A stretch of 64,000 nucleotides of DNA, from IMG/VR virus record IMGVR_UViG_2718218449_000002; one strand, 5' to 3'. Shown piece after piece: positions 9,001 through 15,000 of the stretch. Made by a program: the position numbers. This DNA is from a virus. Lineage: Duplodnaviria > Heunggongvirae > Uroviricota > Caudoviricetes. The first letter of the stretch is position 1, and each line of letters begins with the position of its first letter.

Positions 9001-12000
9001 CGTGCCGATGAAGGTTAAGATATCTTCTTCTTCGAAACGCTCTTTCAGCAGGTCACGGAACTCTTTGGCAATTTCTTCTTCCGCAGCTTCAACACGCACG
9101 ATACGTAGCACCAGAACAGGCTGTTCGCTTGTCAGAATGCTTAATCGCAGCGTGAATTCCCTGTTGCCCAGGCCCTCGTATGGGATGCATTCAAAGCGGA
9201 AAGTGGCAGGCATGATTTCTTTGCTTTTAGCCTCCACGGACTCCATGACTGAGCGGCTACCGCTGAAGTTTTGCTCTTCATATTCAGCACTGCGTTTTGC
9301 ATCGATGGTAAGACGACGGACAGCAGAGATAGCCTGTTTGATATCCAGCACATTACCGTCGCTGTCATAGGCTGTGAGGAAGTCGGCCCAGTCTTCCAGC
9401 CATTCAGCGAGAGACTTCTGGAGTTGTTTTTTGCCGTCAACGTCACGCAATGCGCGATATGGTGATGTGGCTTTCAGTTCCAGCAGTGCCTTGTTGTCAG
9501 CGTGTCCAGGTTGCTCCAGAGTGCCGATATTGAACACAGTGACTGCTTTCATCGTTTCCGCGTTAATGAAGCAGCGGGAGTGCTCATCGGCATACCCTTT
9601 GCTGTATTCAACAAAGTCATCAATACTGGTTGTGGTCATGACTCCACGGAAACGAAAACGTTCTGTCATGAATCGTTCCAGACTTTCGATATTTACATTG
9701 TCCGGCAATAACGCAACAGGGCATTCCGTAAGCGGCAAATTTTCACCAGAAAAAGCAGTAGTGGTGAGTTTTACAATTTCTTTAATGGCATTGCTATCTA
9801 ACTGAGACATGTATATTTACCTTTAATTTATGGATTTGGGGATAATGCGCGAGCGTTTTAAGGCGGGGATTATTCAGCGTAAAACAGCGTCATGTTGACC
9901 CTGTTTATCGAAAAGCTGTCCCTGGTCTTTCTGGAACAAAGTAAGCTCACCACCTTTATTTACAAACATCGGGGTGTTAGTTGTGTCTTCTTCTGATTTA
10001 CTACCACGCATTGTCGGGCGTGTGAATTTTAGTTTATGGGAAACTGATACGCGATTTTCATCAAGTGAAGATAATTCGAATTCAACACATACCTTTCCTT
10101 TTTTGTTTGTGCTGTTTACGCCAAAGGCAACTTCACTTAATACCGCGCCAAGTTTGTTAACAAATACCCCGCCGTCGAGGTCGTTAATGAAAATATTAAC
10201 ATCTGTCTGATGCTGACTCATATTTATATCTCCGTGTAGAGAGTGTATTGAGGCTTCGGTTGTTTACTGCATTTAAAGCCTGGTTTTGTTTGTGAATTAA
10301 AAACTATCGCTGCCGTACTGCCAGTAACCTGGGGCGTCCGTGTGATTCGGGTTTACGTTTTTGCTGCGATTGTCTTTGTCTTTGAGAGTGGAAACCATAT
10401 TTGCTACAGTTTCTGGTTTCTTTCCTTCAGCTTTTTCTTTCAGTGTCTGCCCTGTTTCTGCAATGAATGGAATGCGGATTTCCATCTGGTAACCGTCTGC
10501 GCCAGTCTTTCTGTTTGTGGTTAATACTTTCTGGAGGACGAGTCCGATTTTCTTTCCGTGAAACTCAGGTGCAACATATTTACTGACGGAAACCATATGC
10601 TGCGTTAACTGCCCAATTCCTGTGCATCCCATCATGGCGTGAATAATGCTCGCCCCAAATTTATTTTCAGTGCCGTCATTCTTCTGAACACAAACACTGA
10701 GATATTGGATTTTCCGTCCGTCGTCGGATTCTCCAGAAAACTCAATGAATCGGGCACCTTTTTCTGATTGCTTGAGTTCTGCTTCGGTGATGTTAATGAT
10801 ATGCGCACCCGTTTCGGTAATAAAACCACCTTGTCCGGCGGTCAGTGCTGATTCTTCGTTATAAGTAAAAATCACTTCATCCATTAGTTATTAACCCCCC
10901 ATTGTTCTCCAAATACAAAACCAATTTCCGCCAGTGCTTCGTCCATTTTGTCGATGAACTCCGGCACCATCTCATCAAAACTCGTCATGTACTTCTCATC
11001 CCGTTCGACCACGACATAATGCAGGCCTTCACGCTTCATGCGTGGATCGTAGTTGGCGAAGTACCAGGCGTCCTTGTCTGTAACCCACATGCTGAATTGC
11101 ACCTGGGCCATGTAAGCAGGCTTGATAGCGTCAAAGCCGCCAAGCCGGAACTTCATGAAGTCGCGGGAAGTGAAGGGGCATTTAAGCTCAAGGCCGTTAC
11201 CGTCGCTGCATAAACCGTCGGGAGAGCAGGCGGTGCGCATGCTTTCGTCACGAAAAATTATTGGCGTTTCCGAGACGGTAACATCCGCGATAAACTCGAA
11301 GAGGGCACGGGCATCATCTTCGTATTGCTTTCCCCATGCGAGCGACTTAGCGTTAACTTCCGGTGCCACGCCAGTACAAACTTCAGCCAGCAGGGTGTGG
11401 AAGTATGACATTTTTGTATCAGGCCATTTGCTGCCGGAACGTGGCTTTGCTATCACATTGTGAACTTCTGAAGCAGTGATAACACCGAGTCTCAGCTTGT
11501 GCCATCCATCATCGCCCTGGTCGAGGCTGGTAATATCCACGCCAGTTCGCTGGAGAATAATTTCTGGTGTCATGACACGGCCTCGCTGTTATTTTCCGTG
11601 GTGGCGTGAATTTTCGCTTCCGCCGTGGCCTTGTTTCTGGCAGCTTTCTTTTTGACAAAATCAAGCGTTTTGACAGCTTCTTCCTGACTGAGATATTCAT
11701 GTGATGCAATCGTGCGACGGAATGTTTTGGAACATAAGGGAAGCAGGTCATCCCATGTCTTGTTAATTTCGGTGATTGCCTGAGTGATCTCATTGATAAT
11801 CTCATCTGATGCGGGAGTGACGTCACGCTCAGGGATGTGATCAGCATTCAGGATGATACCTTCACCGCCCTGAGTGTTCAGGTAGTCGATAGCTGTATCC
11901 AGGCGATCGCGACGGGGCCAGTATTTGCTGGCGCGCTTAACAATGGCTTTTCTGGCCATTTCATCGGGGAAACTATCCCACGGGCTACTTCCTCCGTTAT

Positions 12001-15000
12001 TTCCGGCTTTGCTGCACGCCCTGATGACCTCGATTTCCCTGTTGCTCATCTCTTCGGTCAGATAGTCGCCTTCGGATGTTTTTACGACACAATAACCGCC
12101 AATGCGTGCGCCCCTGTCGACGAATGGGTTGTATTTGTGCGTGGGGGCGCAGTCAATACCGTTGGACTCGTAAATGTCCTTCTCGTAAACAAGTTTGCAT
12201 TGCCCCCACTGAATGGCTCCTGTGACCTGTGCCAGATGCAGAAGCCCCATATAACTGATATCCAGGCATACAGCCTTTTTTCGTGGTACCAGATACGCCA
12301 GCTTGCTGGCCGGGTTCAGGGTTATGCCTATGGCGGCAACATTGATGATAGCGTTCTGTGCGCTGGACAGATTTCCCCGTGCTGTGTCAGCCAGAAAGGA
12401 ATTTTTCTGGAATTGCTGAATTGCAAACTGACTTTCCTTAGCCCATGTCAGCGTCGGTTCAGTTAATGCTTCGCAGAAAAAGCGCTCCTGCTGTTTAACA
12501 AATTCAACGATATCGAACATTTTTATTGGTCCTGAAAATCAGAAAGGACAGGGGGAGAATTTCCTCTCCCATTCTTCTTCCGCCCGTGCATAGGCGATCG
12601 CTGAGATATAATCGTTGTAAGCCTCTTCCGCTTTATCGCCAGTAAGTGCCAGCTGGGCTTCTTTGGGTAAAAAAAGGCTGCTCATAAGCAATGGTTTATC
12701 GGGGAACATGCTGATAAGCTCCTGCGCCCGATCGTCAATCCATTTATCCTTTTCATCCTGAATGTGCTGATTAACCCAGCGACGCTCCTCTATTCGGTCA
12801 CAGGTGAGGTATGCGTTCATGGCGGAACTCCTGATTTCGGTTAATGCATTAAATTAATTTGTCGGGAAAGCTGACAGACAGGGCAGTCACATTCTTCCTC
12901 CTGCTCCTTAGCGAAGAAATATGCAGCGGCCTGTAATGCGATGTCTTCTGGATTTTCTGCGATAAACATAACATTGCCTTCCGTATCAATAACAGAAATA
13001 GCCTCATCAGGCAGGACAAAAAAATAGGCGATGATTTTATCATCCATAAAAACTTCACCCATTATAGTTTCTGCTGGCGTTACGACGCTTTTTACATTGA
13101 TATTAATTTTTTGATTGAGCATGATATTTCCTTTCAGGCTGGTGAGATTAACGGCTGGCCTTTATGGTTCAGGTAAACTTCTATTGCATCTGAAATAATG
13201 CGAATTTTTTCAATCAGTGAATGTGCGTAAAGTGCATTATTAACGTTAGCTGACGCCATGTAATAACGCCCGTTGTAAAGAATTGCTGTGCCGGGTTTAA
13301 CGTCCTTGCGAGAAACTAATATGGTTCCGTAGTGAGGTTTGAGCATGACAAATCCTCCGGTTAATTAATCCAGATATTTAATTTAATCCCCGATATATAA
13401 TCGGGGAGAGATTTAATTAAAGATTAACGTTGAAACCAAAGCGGGAAGATTTTTCCGATGTGCGGGAAATATCCAGCAATTTACGGCGCATTTCTTCCGT
13501 CAGATGCTTGAAGGCGTTAAATTCGGCGACAGCGGCGTCAACGTTATAGCCCTTGCTGTGTAGCTCGTTGAGGATGCGCATAGTTGGGCTTGGCATGTCG
13601 AAGAGTACGGAAGCATCAAGGCTGATAACCTTGCGATCAACATAGTTCATCGTGGCGTAGGGGTGATGCTCTGAAAACCACGATAAAGGAAAATTGATAT
13701 TCATCGCAGGAGAAGACAGAGCCAGTTGTTTCTGTTCCCATAGCTGTTTTTCCATGCGATCGAATTCAGCAATATAGGCTTCCTTGAATGCAGCTGCTTT
13801 TTTACCAGTGAAGCCCATCACCAGGAAGACGAATCCGTTTTTGGTGATTTGGTACATTGGGCGTTGTTCGCCTTTGGCGTCGGTGTAGGTAACGTCCTCA
13901 AAATTGAGGGCGTTAAATTTCTCTGAGCATTCAATATTTGCAATGGCACGTAATACGTTATCGTGTCGCTTGCAAAAATATTCGGCAACGGCAAAGGACG
14001 TAGTAACAGCGCGGCCATTGGAAATGGTGATTTCAGGTTGAGAAAGGACTGGGATAGTAGCCATAATGGCAGCCTCCTTGATTGGTGATTAATAACCACC
14101 GCAGGAGGTGAGAAGCTCGCTGGCGGTGGACTGTACAGGGTTCTCACAACTGGCAATCAAGGGAACCAGCCCGACCGAAGTCGGCCCCATACAGCCCACC
14201 ATTGATAAGATGTGCGTGTATGTCGATACAAAAAAAGACGCTGGCGCGTCTGTATCGCCTCGATTGTCAGCGGGGTGAGAATCCCGACACCCGTTTTATA
14301 AGGTGTTCGCCCAATATAGCCCCGGCATCACACGCAGTCAATACCGTCCTTTCTCGGAAATGCTTTGGCGATGTGGCAGGTGGGAGACCCATTTCGACCC
14401 GATTCGGCCTACTTATCTTCAGCAATAGTCCCTCGGGCCTCGCCGCTTTACGTGCGACATATTCCCGTCCATGAACCCTTCACCACACCCCAAAACATTC
14501 CCTGTATTGGTCAGCGCCAACTTCCTGCCAGTGTTGCCCGTTCTCACGCCGTTCTCGCTCTCGCGCGGGGATACTCTCTCATCGACCGGATCGCACCCGA
14601 TGATACAGCACGTTTACGTGTAGGGGTCTAAACAGGTCATTGACGCTGTAAAGCTCCAGATTGTTAAAGAGCATTTTGCGGCGGGTTAAGTCGCGCCGTA
14701 CGACTGATTTATGTAGCCCTGTGTAAGGGCGCGATGTTTCTGGCTTGAAATAAATATAACTTGCGGTTATTTTCATGTAAATACCGTCGGTGCTTTTTTA
14801 AGGACGAGAAATTATTACTTAACTGATTTTTAAAGTGATTTATTTTTTAAGGGGACAGATAACAGGAGGGGATATGCAAAGAAAAACCCGGCGCATGGGC
14901 CGGGCTATTTATCTGGTCCTGTTCTCATTCAGTAGAGTAGGGGCCAAGAAATCGCACTCCGTTGAAGTGAATAAGATGAGAAGGTGCATCAGCCACCCAT

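What the first reader, a model, noticed from the sequence alone, without database searches (positions are those of the whole stretch)
11570..12520. Chimeric annealing protein: RecT-family core fused to a lambda Bet-like C-terminal tail, paired with lambda Exo
The N-terminal ~230 aa carry RecT-family signatures (SKAGNNG...PW...EMARKAI...KYWP), but the last ~70 aa closely match the lambda Bet C-terminus, the part that contacts Exo. The adjacent exonuclease is a near-copy of lambda Exo, so the tail appears matched to its partner nuclease while the annealing core was exchanged.
Basis: partly seen in the sequence, partly recalled or inferred. Interest (0 to 1): 0.5.

Follow-up and report, generated by a model that had tools for sequence, protein, structure and literature searches.

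The report
RecT-core annealase with lambda-Bet tail
This Shiga-toxin phage gene encodes a DNA-annealing protein with a RecT-type body and the small tail domain that lambda Bet uses to dock onto its exonuclease; in relatives the tail and exonuclease change together while the body is swapped, which is a clear case of modular evolution and not a new kind of system.

Summary
ORF 11570-12520(-) encodes a 316-aa protein.

- **Core:** residues 1-208 are a RecT-type annealing core. It passes TIGR00616, gives no match to bet_lambda, and its best fold match is Listeria RecT 7UB2.
- **Tail:** after a disordered linker, residues 229-300 are a three-helix bundle 54% identical to the lambda Bet C-terminal domain (0.6-0.9 Å to 6M9K/8TFU).
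- **Partner:** the next gene overlaps by ATGA and is 87% identical to lambda Exo.

- 91 of the 120 closest RecT-type homologues, from many Enterobacterales, carry this tail. All eight whose loci were looked up have a lambda-Exo-family gene next door.
- In 18 annealase/Exo pairs, tail identity tracks Exo identity (Mantel r=0.84, p=0.0002) and not core identity (r=-0.02).
- The same tail plus a lambda-like Exo also sits behind lambda-type Bet, a divergent Bet-type core, and an ERF core in Erwinia.
- A mosaic E. coli allele shows the 5' end of the core gene swapped while tail and exo were kept.
- Exo-contact residues change in step: Exo T95I/T90A with tail I227T/L250V.

The gene is already annotated as "RecT family recombinase" in 147 of 5426 complete E. 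coli genomes. I found no published description of the hybrid. Interest is moderate.

The parts
11570..12520 (-). Complete annealase gene (316 aa plus stop): RecT-type core, linker, Bet-type C-terminal domain and a short extension
   Evidence: ORF. 100% identical to 'RecT-like ssDNA annealing protein' of phages VT2phi_272, PA2 and ArgO145. Present in 147 of 5426 complete E. coli genomes as 'RecT family recombinase'.
11897..12520 (-). N-terminal RecT-type annealing/oligomerisation core (aa 1-208)
   Evidence: PF03837 87 bits; TIGR00616 65.4 bits (cut-off 52.65); no TIGR01913 match. AF2 pLDDT about 90. Best PDB fold match is Listeria RecT 7UB2, E=7e-7 over 194 columns. 66-73% identical to RecT cores of HK140, Yersinia, Serratia, Vibrio and Aeromonas.
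11837..11896 (-). Inter-domain linker (aa 209-228), the zone where similarity switches from RecT-type relatives to Bet-type relatives
   Evidence: AF2 pLDDT is below 50 over aa 209-231. Alignments with HK140, Vibrio and Aeromonas proteins stay similar up to 'GEG' (about aa 222) and then diverge. Similarity to lambda Bet starts at 'PERD', aa 230. An IS element sits exactly here in a subset of Stx2a phages.
11621..11836 (-). Bet (Red-beta)-type C-terminal three-helix domain (aa 229-300), the presumed docking module for Exo and for SSB tails
   Evidence: 54% identical to lambda Bet 189-261. 8TFU E=7e-19. Model superposes on 6M9K/8TFU at 0.6-0.9 Å over 62-65 residues, target-normalised TM-score 0.87-0.94. 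Helices at 239-251, 256-267 and 279-314. L262 and F288 correspond to the lambda residues L223 and F249 that are essential for Exo binding.
11573..11620 (-). 16-aa C-terminal extension ([16 protein letters not shown]) seen only in the Stx-type alleles; role unknown
   Evidence: Absent from lambda, CobraSix, Mulock, Serratia and the other tails compared. Low model confidence.
10884..11573 (-). Lambda-type 5'-3' exonuclease (229 aa); its start overlaps the annealase stop codon (ATGA)
   Evidence: 87% identical to lambda Exo, with residues 108-136 identical. PF09588 99 bits. ATGA overlap. dN 0.075, dS 1.65 against lambda exo.
11283..11327 (-). Exo helix E segment (aa 83-97), the ridge that inserts into the tail's pocket in the lambda complex
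   Evidence: Contact residues are taken from PMC6393309. Here they read Q83, D87, A90, L91, F94, I95. L91 and F94 are kept; T90A and T95I differ from lambda. I95 is seen only with the Stx-type tail among lambda-like Exos.
12539..12820 (-). GamL (phi80-type) host-nuclease inhibitor, first gene of the module
   Evidence: NF033500 148 bits, cut-off 40; phrog_1050. Found upstream of the annealase in the Stx-type loci that contain the intact gene.
10297..10884 (-). DUF669 OB-fold SSB-like protein (195 aa), start overlapping the exo stop (TAATG), with a disordered acidic tail ending in Phe

Best explanation
The gene encodes a two-domain single-strand annealing protein of a lambda-Red-like two-component recombinase. 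The operon order is GamL, annealase, Exo, SSB-like protein.

Shown:
- The N-terminal 208 residues are a RecT-type (Rad52-fold) DNA-binding and oligomerising core.
- A flexible linker joins the core to a 72-residue three-helix bundle homologous to the C-terminal domain of lambda Bet (Red-beta).
- The tail and the adjacent exo gene behave as one co-diverging cassette.
- The annealing core upstream of the linker has been exchanged repeatedly by recombination, so RecT-type, lambda-Bet-type, a second Bet-type and ERF-type cores all occur with the same tail-plus-Exo unit.

Inferred, by homology with the lambda complex (6M9K) and the Bet-tail/SSB-peptide complexes (8TFU):
- The tail's hydrophobic groove docks onto helix E of each subunit of the adjacent lambda-type Exo trimer, so the annealase is loaded onto the 3' overhang as it is made.
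- The tail then switches to the acidic C-terminal tail of an SSB, bringing the filament to single-stranded DNA at the replication fork.
For: **Architecture**
- Family scans separate the core (RecT TIGR00616 above cut-off, no bet_lambda match) from lambda Bet (bet_lambda only).
- The PDB sequence search hits only the Bet C-terminal domain, aa 225-299, E=7e-19.
- The AF2 model has two confident domains and a disordered linker.
- Fold matches are Listeria RecT for the core and 6M9K/8TFU for the tail at 0.6-0.9 Å.

**Partner**
- Exo is 87% identical to lambda Exo, with the 108-136 stretch identical.
- The stop and start codons overlap as ATGA.

**Interface** (contact residues from PMC6393309)
- The four residues whose mutation abolishes the lambda complex are all conserved here: Exo L91 and F94, Bet L223 and F249.
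- The Stx lineage alone combines Exo T95I/T90A with tail I227T/L250V.
- The Morganella/Proteus, Yersinia and Vibrio/Aeromonas groups each have their own joint set of ridge and pocket residues.

**Cassette behaviour**
- The two halves have disjoint relatives in phages.
- In every complete IMG/VR locus with an intact tail-bearing annealase gene, a lambda-like Exo (83-100% identical) follows it, whether the core is Stx-type RecT, CobraSix-type RecT or lambda Bet.
- All eight RecT-plus-tail homologues looked up are followed by a YqaJ/lambda-Exo gene.
- Across 18 pairs, Mantel tail~Exo r=0.835, p=0.0002, and tail~core r=-0.02, p=0.53.
- The window's core is 73% identical to a Yersinia RecT whose tail is 31% and Exo 52% identical. 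It is 26% identical to lambda Bet's core, whose tail is 55% and Exo 87% identical.
- RecT relatives without an exo (HK140, HK639; downstream gene is Gp157) have an unrelated tail: hhalign probability 1.5%.
- Vibrio/Aeromonas relatives, whose Exo is 42-47% identical to lambda's, have a distantly homologous tail: hhalign 95.5%, E=1.6e-8.
- An ERF-superfamily core in Erwinia aeris carries the same tail and a lambda-like Exo (84% identical) with a 4-nt overlap.

**Ongoing exchange**
- E. coli allele P0031/L101 is 96-100% identical to HK140 over nt 1-240, and 91-98% identical to the window from about nt 600 through the tail. The nucleotide match to the window then runs on through exo (about 90% overall).

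**Selection**
- Whole-gene dN/dS is 0.19-0.47 among close variants.
Against: - No binding, annealing or recombination was measured. Docking to Exo and to SSB is inferred from homology with lambda.
- Only a monomer model was made.
- The tail-coding DNA abuts exo, so the tail~Exo correlation could arise from physical linkage alone, without co-adaptation.
- The reciprocal interface changes in the Stx lineage count as one evolutionary event. Residue mapping in the most divergent groups depends on uncertain alignments.
- Three lambda contact positions differ here (I227T, L250V, E256R).
- Within-lineage substitutions in the tail are too few to show domain-specific constraint.
- The gene is IS-disrupted or frameshifted in many Stx phages, so it is dispensable for the lysogen.
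- The 18 pairs were chosen by hand from search hits, not sampled systematically.
Confidence: 0.8

Rival explanations
1. Ordinary vertical member of a RecT sub-family that has always had this tail. The resemblance to lambda Bet reflects common ancestry of whole RecT/Red-beta proteins, with a fast-evolving core and a slow-evolving tail. No core exchange occurred in this lineage.
For: - 91 of the 120 closest RecT-type homologues carry a tail that matches the Bet C-terminal domain, with identities forming a continuum from 84% down to about 33%.
- The junction lies at the same place in Stx-type and CobraSix-type proteins.
- RecT and Red-beta share one Pfam family.
Against: - Core and tail identities are uncorrelated (r=-0.02 over all pairs; 0.17 within RecT-type only), whereas tail and Exo identities are correlated at 0.84.
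- The window's nearest cores (Yersinia, Serratia, Morganella, HK140) have distant or unrelated tails.
- Lambda's tail and Exo nest inside the RecT-type diversity in UPGMA clusterings.
- An ERF-family core has the same tail.
- The mosaic allele L101 shows exchange at DNA level.
Confidence: 0.12
2. The tail is primarily an SSB-docking module, for host SSB or the phage's own DUF669 SSB-like protein. It is conserved because all these phages infect Enterobacterales. Its association with lambda-type Exo is only genetic linkage and it does not bind this Exo.
For: - The Bet C-terminal domain binds the E. coli SSB C-terminal peptide through the same groove (PMC6393309; PDB 8TFU titles).
- An OB-fold SSB-like gene with an acidic, Phe-terminated tail lies directly after exo.
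- SSB genes also follow exo in the Proteus, P0137 and Aeromonas loci.
- The tail and exo are adjacent, so linkage is expected.
Against: - The tail diverges strongly between genera of Enterobacterales (31-84% identity) in step with Exo. From my own knowledge, not tested here, the host SSB C-terminal tip is almost invariant in this order.
- The two Exo and two tail residues essential for the lambda complex are conserved, and neighbouring contact residues change reciprocally.
- RecT relatives that lack an exo lack this tail even though they infect E. coli.
Confidence: 0.15
3. A decaying or non-functional remnant in a prophage, so the architecture has no present function.
For: - The gene is interrupted by an IS element in about 33 Stx2a phage records, by count difference, with one record inspected.
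- It is frameshifted in phi191.
- Truncated fragments are common in databases.
Against: - The gene is intact and at least 95% identical over at least 80% of its length in 143 complete E. coli genomes and in 62 phage records.
- Whole-gene dN/dS is 0.19-0.47.
- The coupled operon structure is preserved.
- The model is confident for both domains.
Confidence: 0.03

Closest known systems
Lambda Red system: Bet (Red-beta) plus Exo (Red-alpha), with the structure of the Bet C-terminal domain bound to the Exo trimer (PDB 6M9K) and to the SSB tail peptide (8TFU)
   Same: - Same gene order, and the same ATGA stop/start overlap between annealase and exo.
- Exo is 87% identical.
- The C-terminal three-helix domain is 54% identical and superposes at 0.6-0.9 Å.
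- The four residues essential for the complex are conserved.
   Different: - The annealing core is of the RecT sub-family (TIGR00616). It is not a bet_lambda equivalog, and identity to the lambda Bet core is about 26%, which is noise level.
- The Gam is the phi80 GamL type.
- A DUF669 SSB-like gene follows exo.
- The protein has a 16-aa C-terminal extension.
- The pocket and ridge residues are reciprocally altered.
[quoted passage not shown]
   Same: Same sub-family of annealing core (TIGR00616; NF007351 partial hit). Best structural match of the core is 7UB2.
   Different: - Not an equivalog of Rac RecT (71 bits against a cut-off of 296).
- The partner is a lambda-type Exo, not RecE.
- It carries a 72-residue Bet-type tail. 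The 2023 review (PMC11611040) describes only about 26 unmodelled C-terminal residues in Listeria RecT and calls it unknown whether RecT uses a Bet-like domain.
RecT-type annealases with the same tail in other Enterobacterales, for example Enterobacter phage CobraSix gp45 and prophage proteins of Serratia, Klebsiella, Yersinia, Morganella and Proteus
   Same: Same architecture (RecT core, linker, Bet-type tail), followed by a lambda-Exo-family gene, often with GamL upstream.
   Different: - The window's core is closest to the Yersinia/Serratia/HK140 group (69-73%), while its Exo is closest to lambda (87%).
- Its tail has lineage-specific T266 and V289 and the 16-aa extension.
RecT of lambdoid phages HK140 and HK639
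   Same: The closest characterised-phage relatives of the core (67-69% identity).
   Different: Their tail is unrelated (hhalign probability 1.5%). The downstream gene is a Siphovirus Gp157-family protein and not an exonuclease.

Membership tests
RecT family of single-strand annealing proteins (Pfam PF03837; NCBIfam TIGR00616) | Profile score above the curated cut-off over the annealing core | tested here: met
   PF03837 87.1 bits (cut-off 24), aa 31-204. TIGR00616 65.4 bits (cut-off 52.65).
RecT family of single-strand annealing proteins | Rad52-like annealase fold closest to a solved RecT structure | tested here: met
   The AF2 core (pLDDT about 90) has Listeria RecT 7UB2 as top PDB hit (E=7e-7, 194 columns, target-normalised TM-score 0.60). 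Sak and RAD52 are much weaker, and Red-beta 1-177 is not in the 50 rows shown.
RecT of Rac prophage (equivalog NF007351) | Score at or above the equivalog cut-off (296 bits) | tested here: not met
   71.4 bits. Same sub-family, but not an orthologue of Rac RecT.
Lambda Bet / Red-beta (equivalog TIGR01913 bet_lambda) | N-terminal Bet-type annealing domain scoring above 76.95 bits | tested here: not met
   The window protein gives no TIGR01913 match at E<=1, while lambda Bet scores 169.5 bits. Core identity to lambda Bet is about 26%.
Red-beta C-terminal domain (three-helix Exo/SSB-binding module) | Sequence and fold of the domain solved in 6M9K and 8TFU | tested here: met
   phmmer E=7e-19 to 8TFU and 1e-14 to 6M9K. 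Model superposes at 0.6-0.9 Å, target-normalised TM-score 0.87-0.94, 52-55% identity.
Red-beta C-terminal domain | Hydrophobic pocket residues essential for Exo binding (lambda L223 and F249), and the matching Exo ridge residues L91 and F94 | tested here: met
   The equivalents are L262 and F288 in the tail, and L91 and F94 in Exo. The neighbouring positions I227T, L250V, Exo T90A and T95I differ.
Red-beta C-terminal domain | Physical binding to the Exo trimer and to the SSB C-terminal peptide | not testable with these tools
   Needs pull-down, ITC or fluorescence anisotropy, or at least a multimer prediction. Only monomer prediction was available.
Lambda exonuclease family (PF09588 YqaJ; PD-(D/E)XK) | Profile match and conservation of the catalytic segment | tested here: met
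   PF09588 99 bits. 87% identical to lambda Exo, with residues 108-136 identical. By my recollection that stretch holds the catalytic Asp/Glu/Lys. TIGR03033 scores only 54.4 bits, below its cut-off of 68.05.
Two-component (exonuclease plus annealase) phage recombinase | Adjacent, co-oriented and translationally coupled annealase and exonuclease genes | tested here: met
   ATGA overlap at 11570-11573. The same arrangement occurs in lambda and in all related loci with an intact annealase gene and an adjacent exo.
Two-component phage recombinase | Annealing and recombination activity | not testable with these tools
   No experimental data on this protein were found in the papers searched.
GamL host-nuclease inhibitor (NF033500) | Equivalog score above cut-off for the upstream gene | tested here: met
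   148.2 bits, cut-off 40. Only marginal similarity to lambda Gam.

The most novel reading that the evidence does not exclude
The Bet-type C-terminal domain and the lambda-type exonuclease form a core-agnostic 'adaptor plus nuclease' cassette. Any Rad52-fold annealase core (RecT, Red-beta, a second Bet-like type, ERF) can be recombined in upstream of the linker and still be loaded by the same Exo and recruited by SSB. The tail alone would then specify the partner and co-evolve with Exo helix E. It might also read the acidic, Phe-terminated tail of the phage's own DUF669 SSB-like protein. This would make natural alleles such as this one ready-made templates for mix-and-match recombineering systems.
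Probability: 0.45. Interest if true: 0.6.

Novelty: new variant of a known kind. Interest (0 to 1): 0.45.

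Why it matters
Specificity between annealase and exonuclease is why lambda Red and RecET components cannot be mixed.

**The open question.** The only structural explanation so far is the lambda Bet tail bound to Exo. The authors of that structure reported no significant sequence homologues of the tail (PMC6393309). A 2023 review calls it unknown whether RecT-type annealases use a similar domain (PMC11611040).

**What this locus adds.** Many RecT-type annealases, and at least one ERF-type one, carry a homologous tail exactly when their neighbour is a lambda-family exonuclease. The tail diverges in step with that exonuclease. This is a natural domain-swap series, with candidate specificity residues: Exo 90, 91, 94 and 95 against tail 223, 227, 249 and 250.

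**Practical uses.**
- It suggests how to graft new annealing cores onto an existing Exo partner for recombineering.
- It flags that 'RecT family recombinase' annotations hide two functionally different tail classes.

The gene also sits in clinically important Stx2a phages, including the O104:H4 outbreak phage type (P13374), where this recombinase may contribute to prophage mosaicism.

Tried and rejected
1. **Tail-only word-indexed protein search**. It returned only 7 fragments and was uninformative about full-length architectures. An exhaustive phmmer run against 1.84 billion cluster representatives found only 21 at E<=0.001, mostly fragments. This shows the family is narrow at single-sequence sensitivity.
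2. **The search for related loci on genome contigs with the tail alignment**. It failed because no stretch was conserved enough. The single genome scan was then spent on the ERF-tail protein.
3. **'About 33 phage records have the same core but a different tail.'** Rejected for the one record inspected: the gene is cut by an IS3-family element right after aa 229. The others were not checked.
4. **'Tail and exo were recently copied from lambda.'** Rejected. Exo dS is 1.65 and tail dS is saturated, and no DNA-level match to lambda exists upstream of the exo start. The gap between 54% tail identity and 87% Exo identity is explained by different constraint (dN 0.41 against 0.075), not by a different age.
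5. **'Vibrio/Aeromonas tails are unrelated.'** Pairwise BLAST was marginal. Intermediates and profile-profile comparison show distant homology. HK140-type tails remain unrelated.
6. **The ERF-tail protein P0016 appeared to lack an exo** on its 1.8-kb contig. Its Erwinia homologue has a lambda-like exo directly downstream.
7. **Literature.** Eight full-text reads or keyword lookups in seven papers and five searches found no description of a natural RecT-core/Bet-tail protein. Iyer et al. 2002 could not be read, so prior mention there cannot be excluded.
8. **Domain-specific dN/dS within the Stx lineage.** There are too few substitutions in the tail to be informative.

Full report
**What the window is**

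The region is the early-left operon of an Stx2a-converting lambdoid phage. Bases 10884-12520 are 100% identical to phages VT2phi_272, PA2, ArgO145 and others (genus Oslovirus), and 98.8% identical to the O104:H4-type phage P13374. In those records the two genes are annotated 'RecT-like ssDNA annealing protein' and 'exonuclease'. The annealase gene occurs in 147 of 5426 complete E. coli genomes, always chromosomal. There it is named 'RecT family recombinase' and sits next to a 'lambda exonuclease family protein'.

**Checking the observation**

The ORF 11570-12520(-) encodes 316 aa.

- *Core.* It hits Pfam RecT and NCBIfam TIGR00616 'phage RecT family' above the cut-off, but not the bet_lambda equivalog. 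Lambda Bet does the opposite. Pfam PF03837 covers both proteins, so 'RecT versus Bet' is a sub-family distinction, but a clean one.
- *Tail.* BLASTP against lambda Bet aligns only the C-terminal part. Residues 229-300 are 54% identical to Bet 189-261. The PDB sequence search returns only the Bet C-terminal domain chains: 8TFU E=7e-19, 6M9K E=1e-14.
- *Exonuclease.* The next ORF (10884-11573) is 87% identical to lambda Exo.
- *Gene junctions.* The annealase stop and the exo start overlap as ATGA, as the annotated coordinates of lambda bet and exo imply.
- *Corrections.* The Bet-like stretch is followed by 16 further residues not seen outside the Stx-type alleles. 'Near-copy' holds for protein only, since nucleotide identity is 80% and dS is 1.65.

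**Structure**

An AlphaFold2 model built on 45 homologues has mean pLDDT 82. It shows a confident N-terminal domain (aa 1-208), a low-confidence linker (aa 209-231) and a confident C-terminal three-helix bundle.

Foldseek against the PDB gives these matches:
- The core's best match is Listeria phage RecT 7UB2 (E=7e-7, 194 columns).
- Red-beta 1-177 is not among the 50 rows listed.

**The two halves have different relatives**

- *N-terminal 224 aa, tblastn against 50,697 phage records*. Hits are the protein's own clade, then HK140 and HK639 (67-68%), Aeromonas and Vibrio phages (65-66%), Marinomonas and Yersinia phages (about 50%), and distant RecTs of Gram-positive phages. No lambda-type Bet is among the rows listed.
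- *C-terminal 92 aa*. Hits are its own clade (at least 90%), then, after a gap, lambda-type Bet proteins at about 51% (lambda, 434, 933W, VT2-Sakai and others), plus Klebsiella and Enterobacter phage proteins.
- *Closest core relatives.* HK140 and HK639 have another tail and are followed by a Gp157-family gene, not an exonuclease.

**Not a one-off**

Several other core types carry the same tail and partner.

- Enterobacter phage CobraSix gp45 has a RecT-type core (TIGR00616), a tail 66% identical to lambda's, a lambda-like Exo and GamL.
- Klebsiella phage Mulock has a Bet-type core that is only 25% identical to lambda's, with the same tail and Exo.
- Eighty IMG/VR loci retrieved with the tail fall into three groups: Stx-type RecT, CobraSix-type RecT (four sub-lineages) and lambda Bet. 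In every complete locus with an intact annealase gene, a lambda-like Exo (83-100% identical) follows it.
- A full-length search found 5534 homologues. Of the best 120, 91 have a tail that BLASTs to the Bet-tail set. Identity to lambda runs from 84% and 75% (a metagenomic sequence; Klebsiella and Citrobacter) through 59-65% (Serratia) to 33-41% (Morganella, Proteus, Yersinia).
- Profile-profile comparison extends the family to the Vibrio/Aeromonas tails (95.5% probability, E=1.6e-8) but not to HK140-type tails (1.5%).
- All eight such proteins looked up are followed directly by a YqaJ/lambda-Exo-family gene.
- An ERF-superfamily core with the same tail exists. In Erwinia aeris it overlaps by 4 nt a gene 84% identical to lambda Exo.

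**The tail tracks the nuclease, not the core**

I split 18 annealase/Exo pairs into core, tail and Exo and computed all pairwise identities. Identity to the window protein:

| Compared with | Core | Tail | Exo |
|---|---|---|---|
| Yersinia | 73 | 31 | 52 |
| Serratia | 72 | 49 | 71 |
| Morganella | 71 | 35 | 58 |
| IMG/VR L036 | 49 | 64 | 83 |
| CobraSix | 55 | 48 | 83 |
| lambda | 26 | 55 | 87 |

Mantel tests with 4999 permutations:
- Tail against Exo: r=0.835, p=0.0002.
- Tail against core: r=-0.02, p=0.53.
- Within RecT-type proteins only: 0.84 (p=0.0002) against 0.17 (p=0.05).

In UPGMA clusterings, lambda and Mulock are outgroups for the core but nest inside the RecT-type diversity for tail and Exo. 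Tail and exo therefore behave as one unit, and the core has been exchanged more than once. The direction of the first transfer cannot be determined.

Synonymous divergence from lambda is saturated for both exo (dS 1.65) and tail. The different protein identities therefore reflect constraint (dN 0.075 against 0.41) and not different ages.

**A recent exchange caught in the act**

E. coli allele P0031 (locus L101) has these parts:
- Nt 1-240 of the gene are 96-100% identical to HK140, as is the upstream DNA.
- A middle segment is 60-80% identical to both.
- From about nt 600 the gene is 91-98% identical to the window through the tail. The nucleotide match to the window continues through exo, at about 90% overall.
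- The crossover into window-like sequence lies in the conserved 'KRASKYWP' region, just upstream of the linker.

**Interface residues**

[quoted passage not shown] Mutating L91, F94, L223 or F249 abolishes the complex (PMC6393309).

- In the window pair, all four essential residues are conserved.
- Among lambda-like pairs, the Stx lineage alone combines Exo T95I (with T90A) and tail I227T/L250V. That is a larger ridge residue facing two smaller pocket residues.
- More distant groups have their own joint sets. Morganella/Proteus have Exo M-T-F-Y with tail F-K-M-L. Vibrio/Aeromonas have Exo D/E-A-A-x with tail W-x-K-L/M.
- This fits co-adaptation but is not proof. These are few independent events, and linkage would also keep the sets together.

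**Mechanism proposed**

*Shown:* the domain architecture, the homologies, the gene coupling and the cassette-like co-divergence.

*Inferred from lambda:*
- The tail docks on the Exo trimer, so the RecT-type core is loaded onto the emerging 3' overhang.
- The same groove then binds an SSB C-terminal tail, targeting the filament to the lagging strand.
- The module begins with GamL, the phi80 type, and not lambda Gam.

**Novelty and literature**

The proteins are in databases under the name RecT.

- The 2023 structural review states that it is unknown whether RecT uses a similar domain.
- The other papers I could read do not discuss it: Lopes 2010, Caldwell 2022, the 2024 AlphaFold survey of the Rad52 superfamily, and ETfinder 2026.

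I therefore rate this as a new variant of a known kind. The components and the mosaic style of phage evolution are familiar. The explicit finding is that the Bet tail is a portable adaptor linked to Exo and shared by RecT-, Bet- and ERF-type cores. That finding appears undescribed in the papers I could search, and it is experimentally useful.

**Limits**

- There is no experimental or multimer-model evidence of binding.
- The 18 pairs were hand-picked from hits.
- Identities come from pairwise global alignments, and the clusterings are UPGMA, not maximum-likelihood trees.
- Within-lineage dN/dS (0.19-0.47 for the whole gene) is based on few substitutions.
- The gene is IS-disrupted or frameshifted in many Stx phages, so it is not essential to the lysogen.

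Noticed in passing
L007 (LC727847.1) about 3670-4650; the equivalent window position is about 11830-11836: In Stx2a phage Stx2a_JNE102772 the annealase gene is interrupted right after aa 229 ('ADHIP'), in the inter-domain linker, by an IS3-family element, and the tail and exo are missing. About 33 phage records have the core but not the tail, by count difference (95 against 62); only this one was inspected.
   Followed up: partly
L008 (phage phi191) 2701-3952: In phi191 the annealase gene is split or frameshifted. It is annotated as a 669-nt 'gam-like' ORF plus a 480-nt 'RecT-like' ORF, and the downstream DUF669 gene is also split.
   Followed up: partly
L101 (E. coli GCA_050515605.1) 3001-4619: A mosaic annealase allele (P0031). 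Its 5' 240 nt and upstream gene are HK140-like, the middle comes from a third source, and the 3' third plus exo are window-like.
   Followed up: yes
L100 (Erwinia aeris NZ_JBGFFX010000001.1) 3998-5427: A protein with an ERF-superfamily core carries a Bet-type C-terminal domain. It overlaps by 4 nt a gene 84% identical to lambda Exo. This is a third, Pfam-distinct core type on the same tail-plus-Exo cassette.
   Followed up: partly
[not shown]
   Followed up: partly
window 11573-11620 (-): A 16-aa C-terminal extension ([16 protein letters not shown]) beyond the Bet-like domain, found only in the Stx-type alleles (and the mosaic L101 allele) among the tails compared. Function unknown.
   Followed up: no
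window 14119-14306 (-) and 2164-2346 (-): Two copies of a C4 antisense RNA plus isrK sRNA pair (Rfam RF01695 and RF01394). One lies just upstream of the Rha-family gene at 13417-14064.
   Followed up: no
window 30494-30610 (-) and 45445-45561 (+): Two equally scoring ALIL pseudoknot matches (121.5 bits each; a frameshift element of IS3-family insertion sequences) in opposite orientation. They imply two IS copies inside the prophage.
   Followed up: no
window 23915-24166 (+) and 25572-25831: tRNA-Met, tRNA-Arg(tcg) and tRNA-Arg(tct), followed by the sRNAs STnc100 and AsxR ('anti-stx2 sRNA'), as expected upstream of stx2 in Stx phages.
   Followed up: no
window 42001-44000: A 2-kb block with GC 0.60, GC skew 0.24 and AT skew 0.28, well above the rest of the window (GC 0.45-0.55).
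   Followed up: no
window 14925-15878 (-) and upstream: A 317-aa ORF annotated 'restriction endonuclease' in VT2phi_272, followed there by a DNA methyltransferase. This is a restriction-modification pair between the Rha gene and the repressor.
   Followed up: no
L071, L073, L077, L078 (IMG/VR) about 3204-3814: In some CobraSix-type loci, 200-600 bp are inserted between the annealase stop and the exo start, breaking the usual overlap.
   Followed up: no
proteins P0009, P0012, P0023 (cluster representatives): Database proteins that join the lambda Gam N-terminus, or parts of the Bet core, directly to the Bet C-terminal domain. They are internal deletions of the lambda red region and may be laboratory constructs or deletion derivatives.
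   Followed up: no
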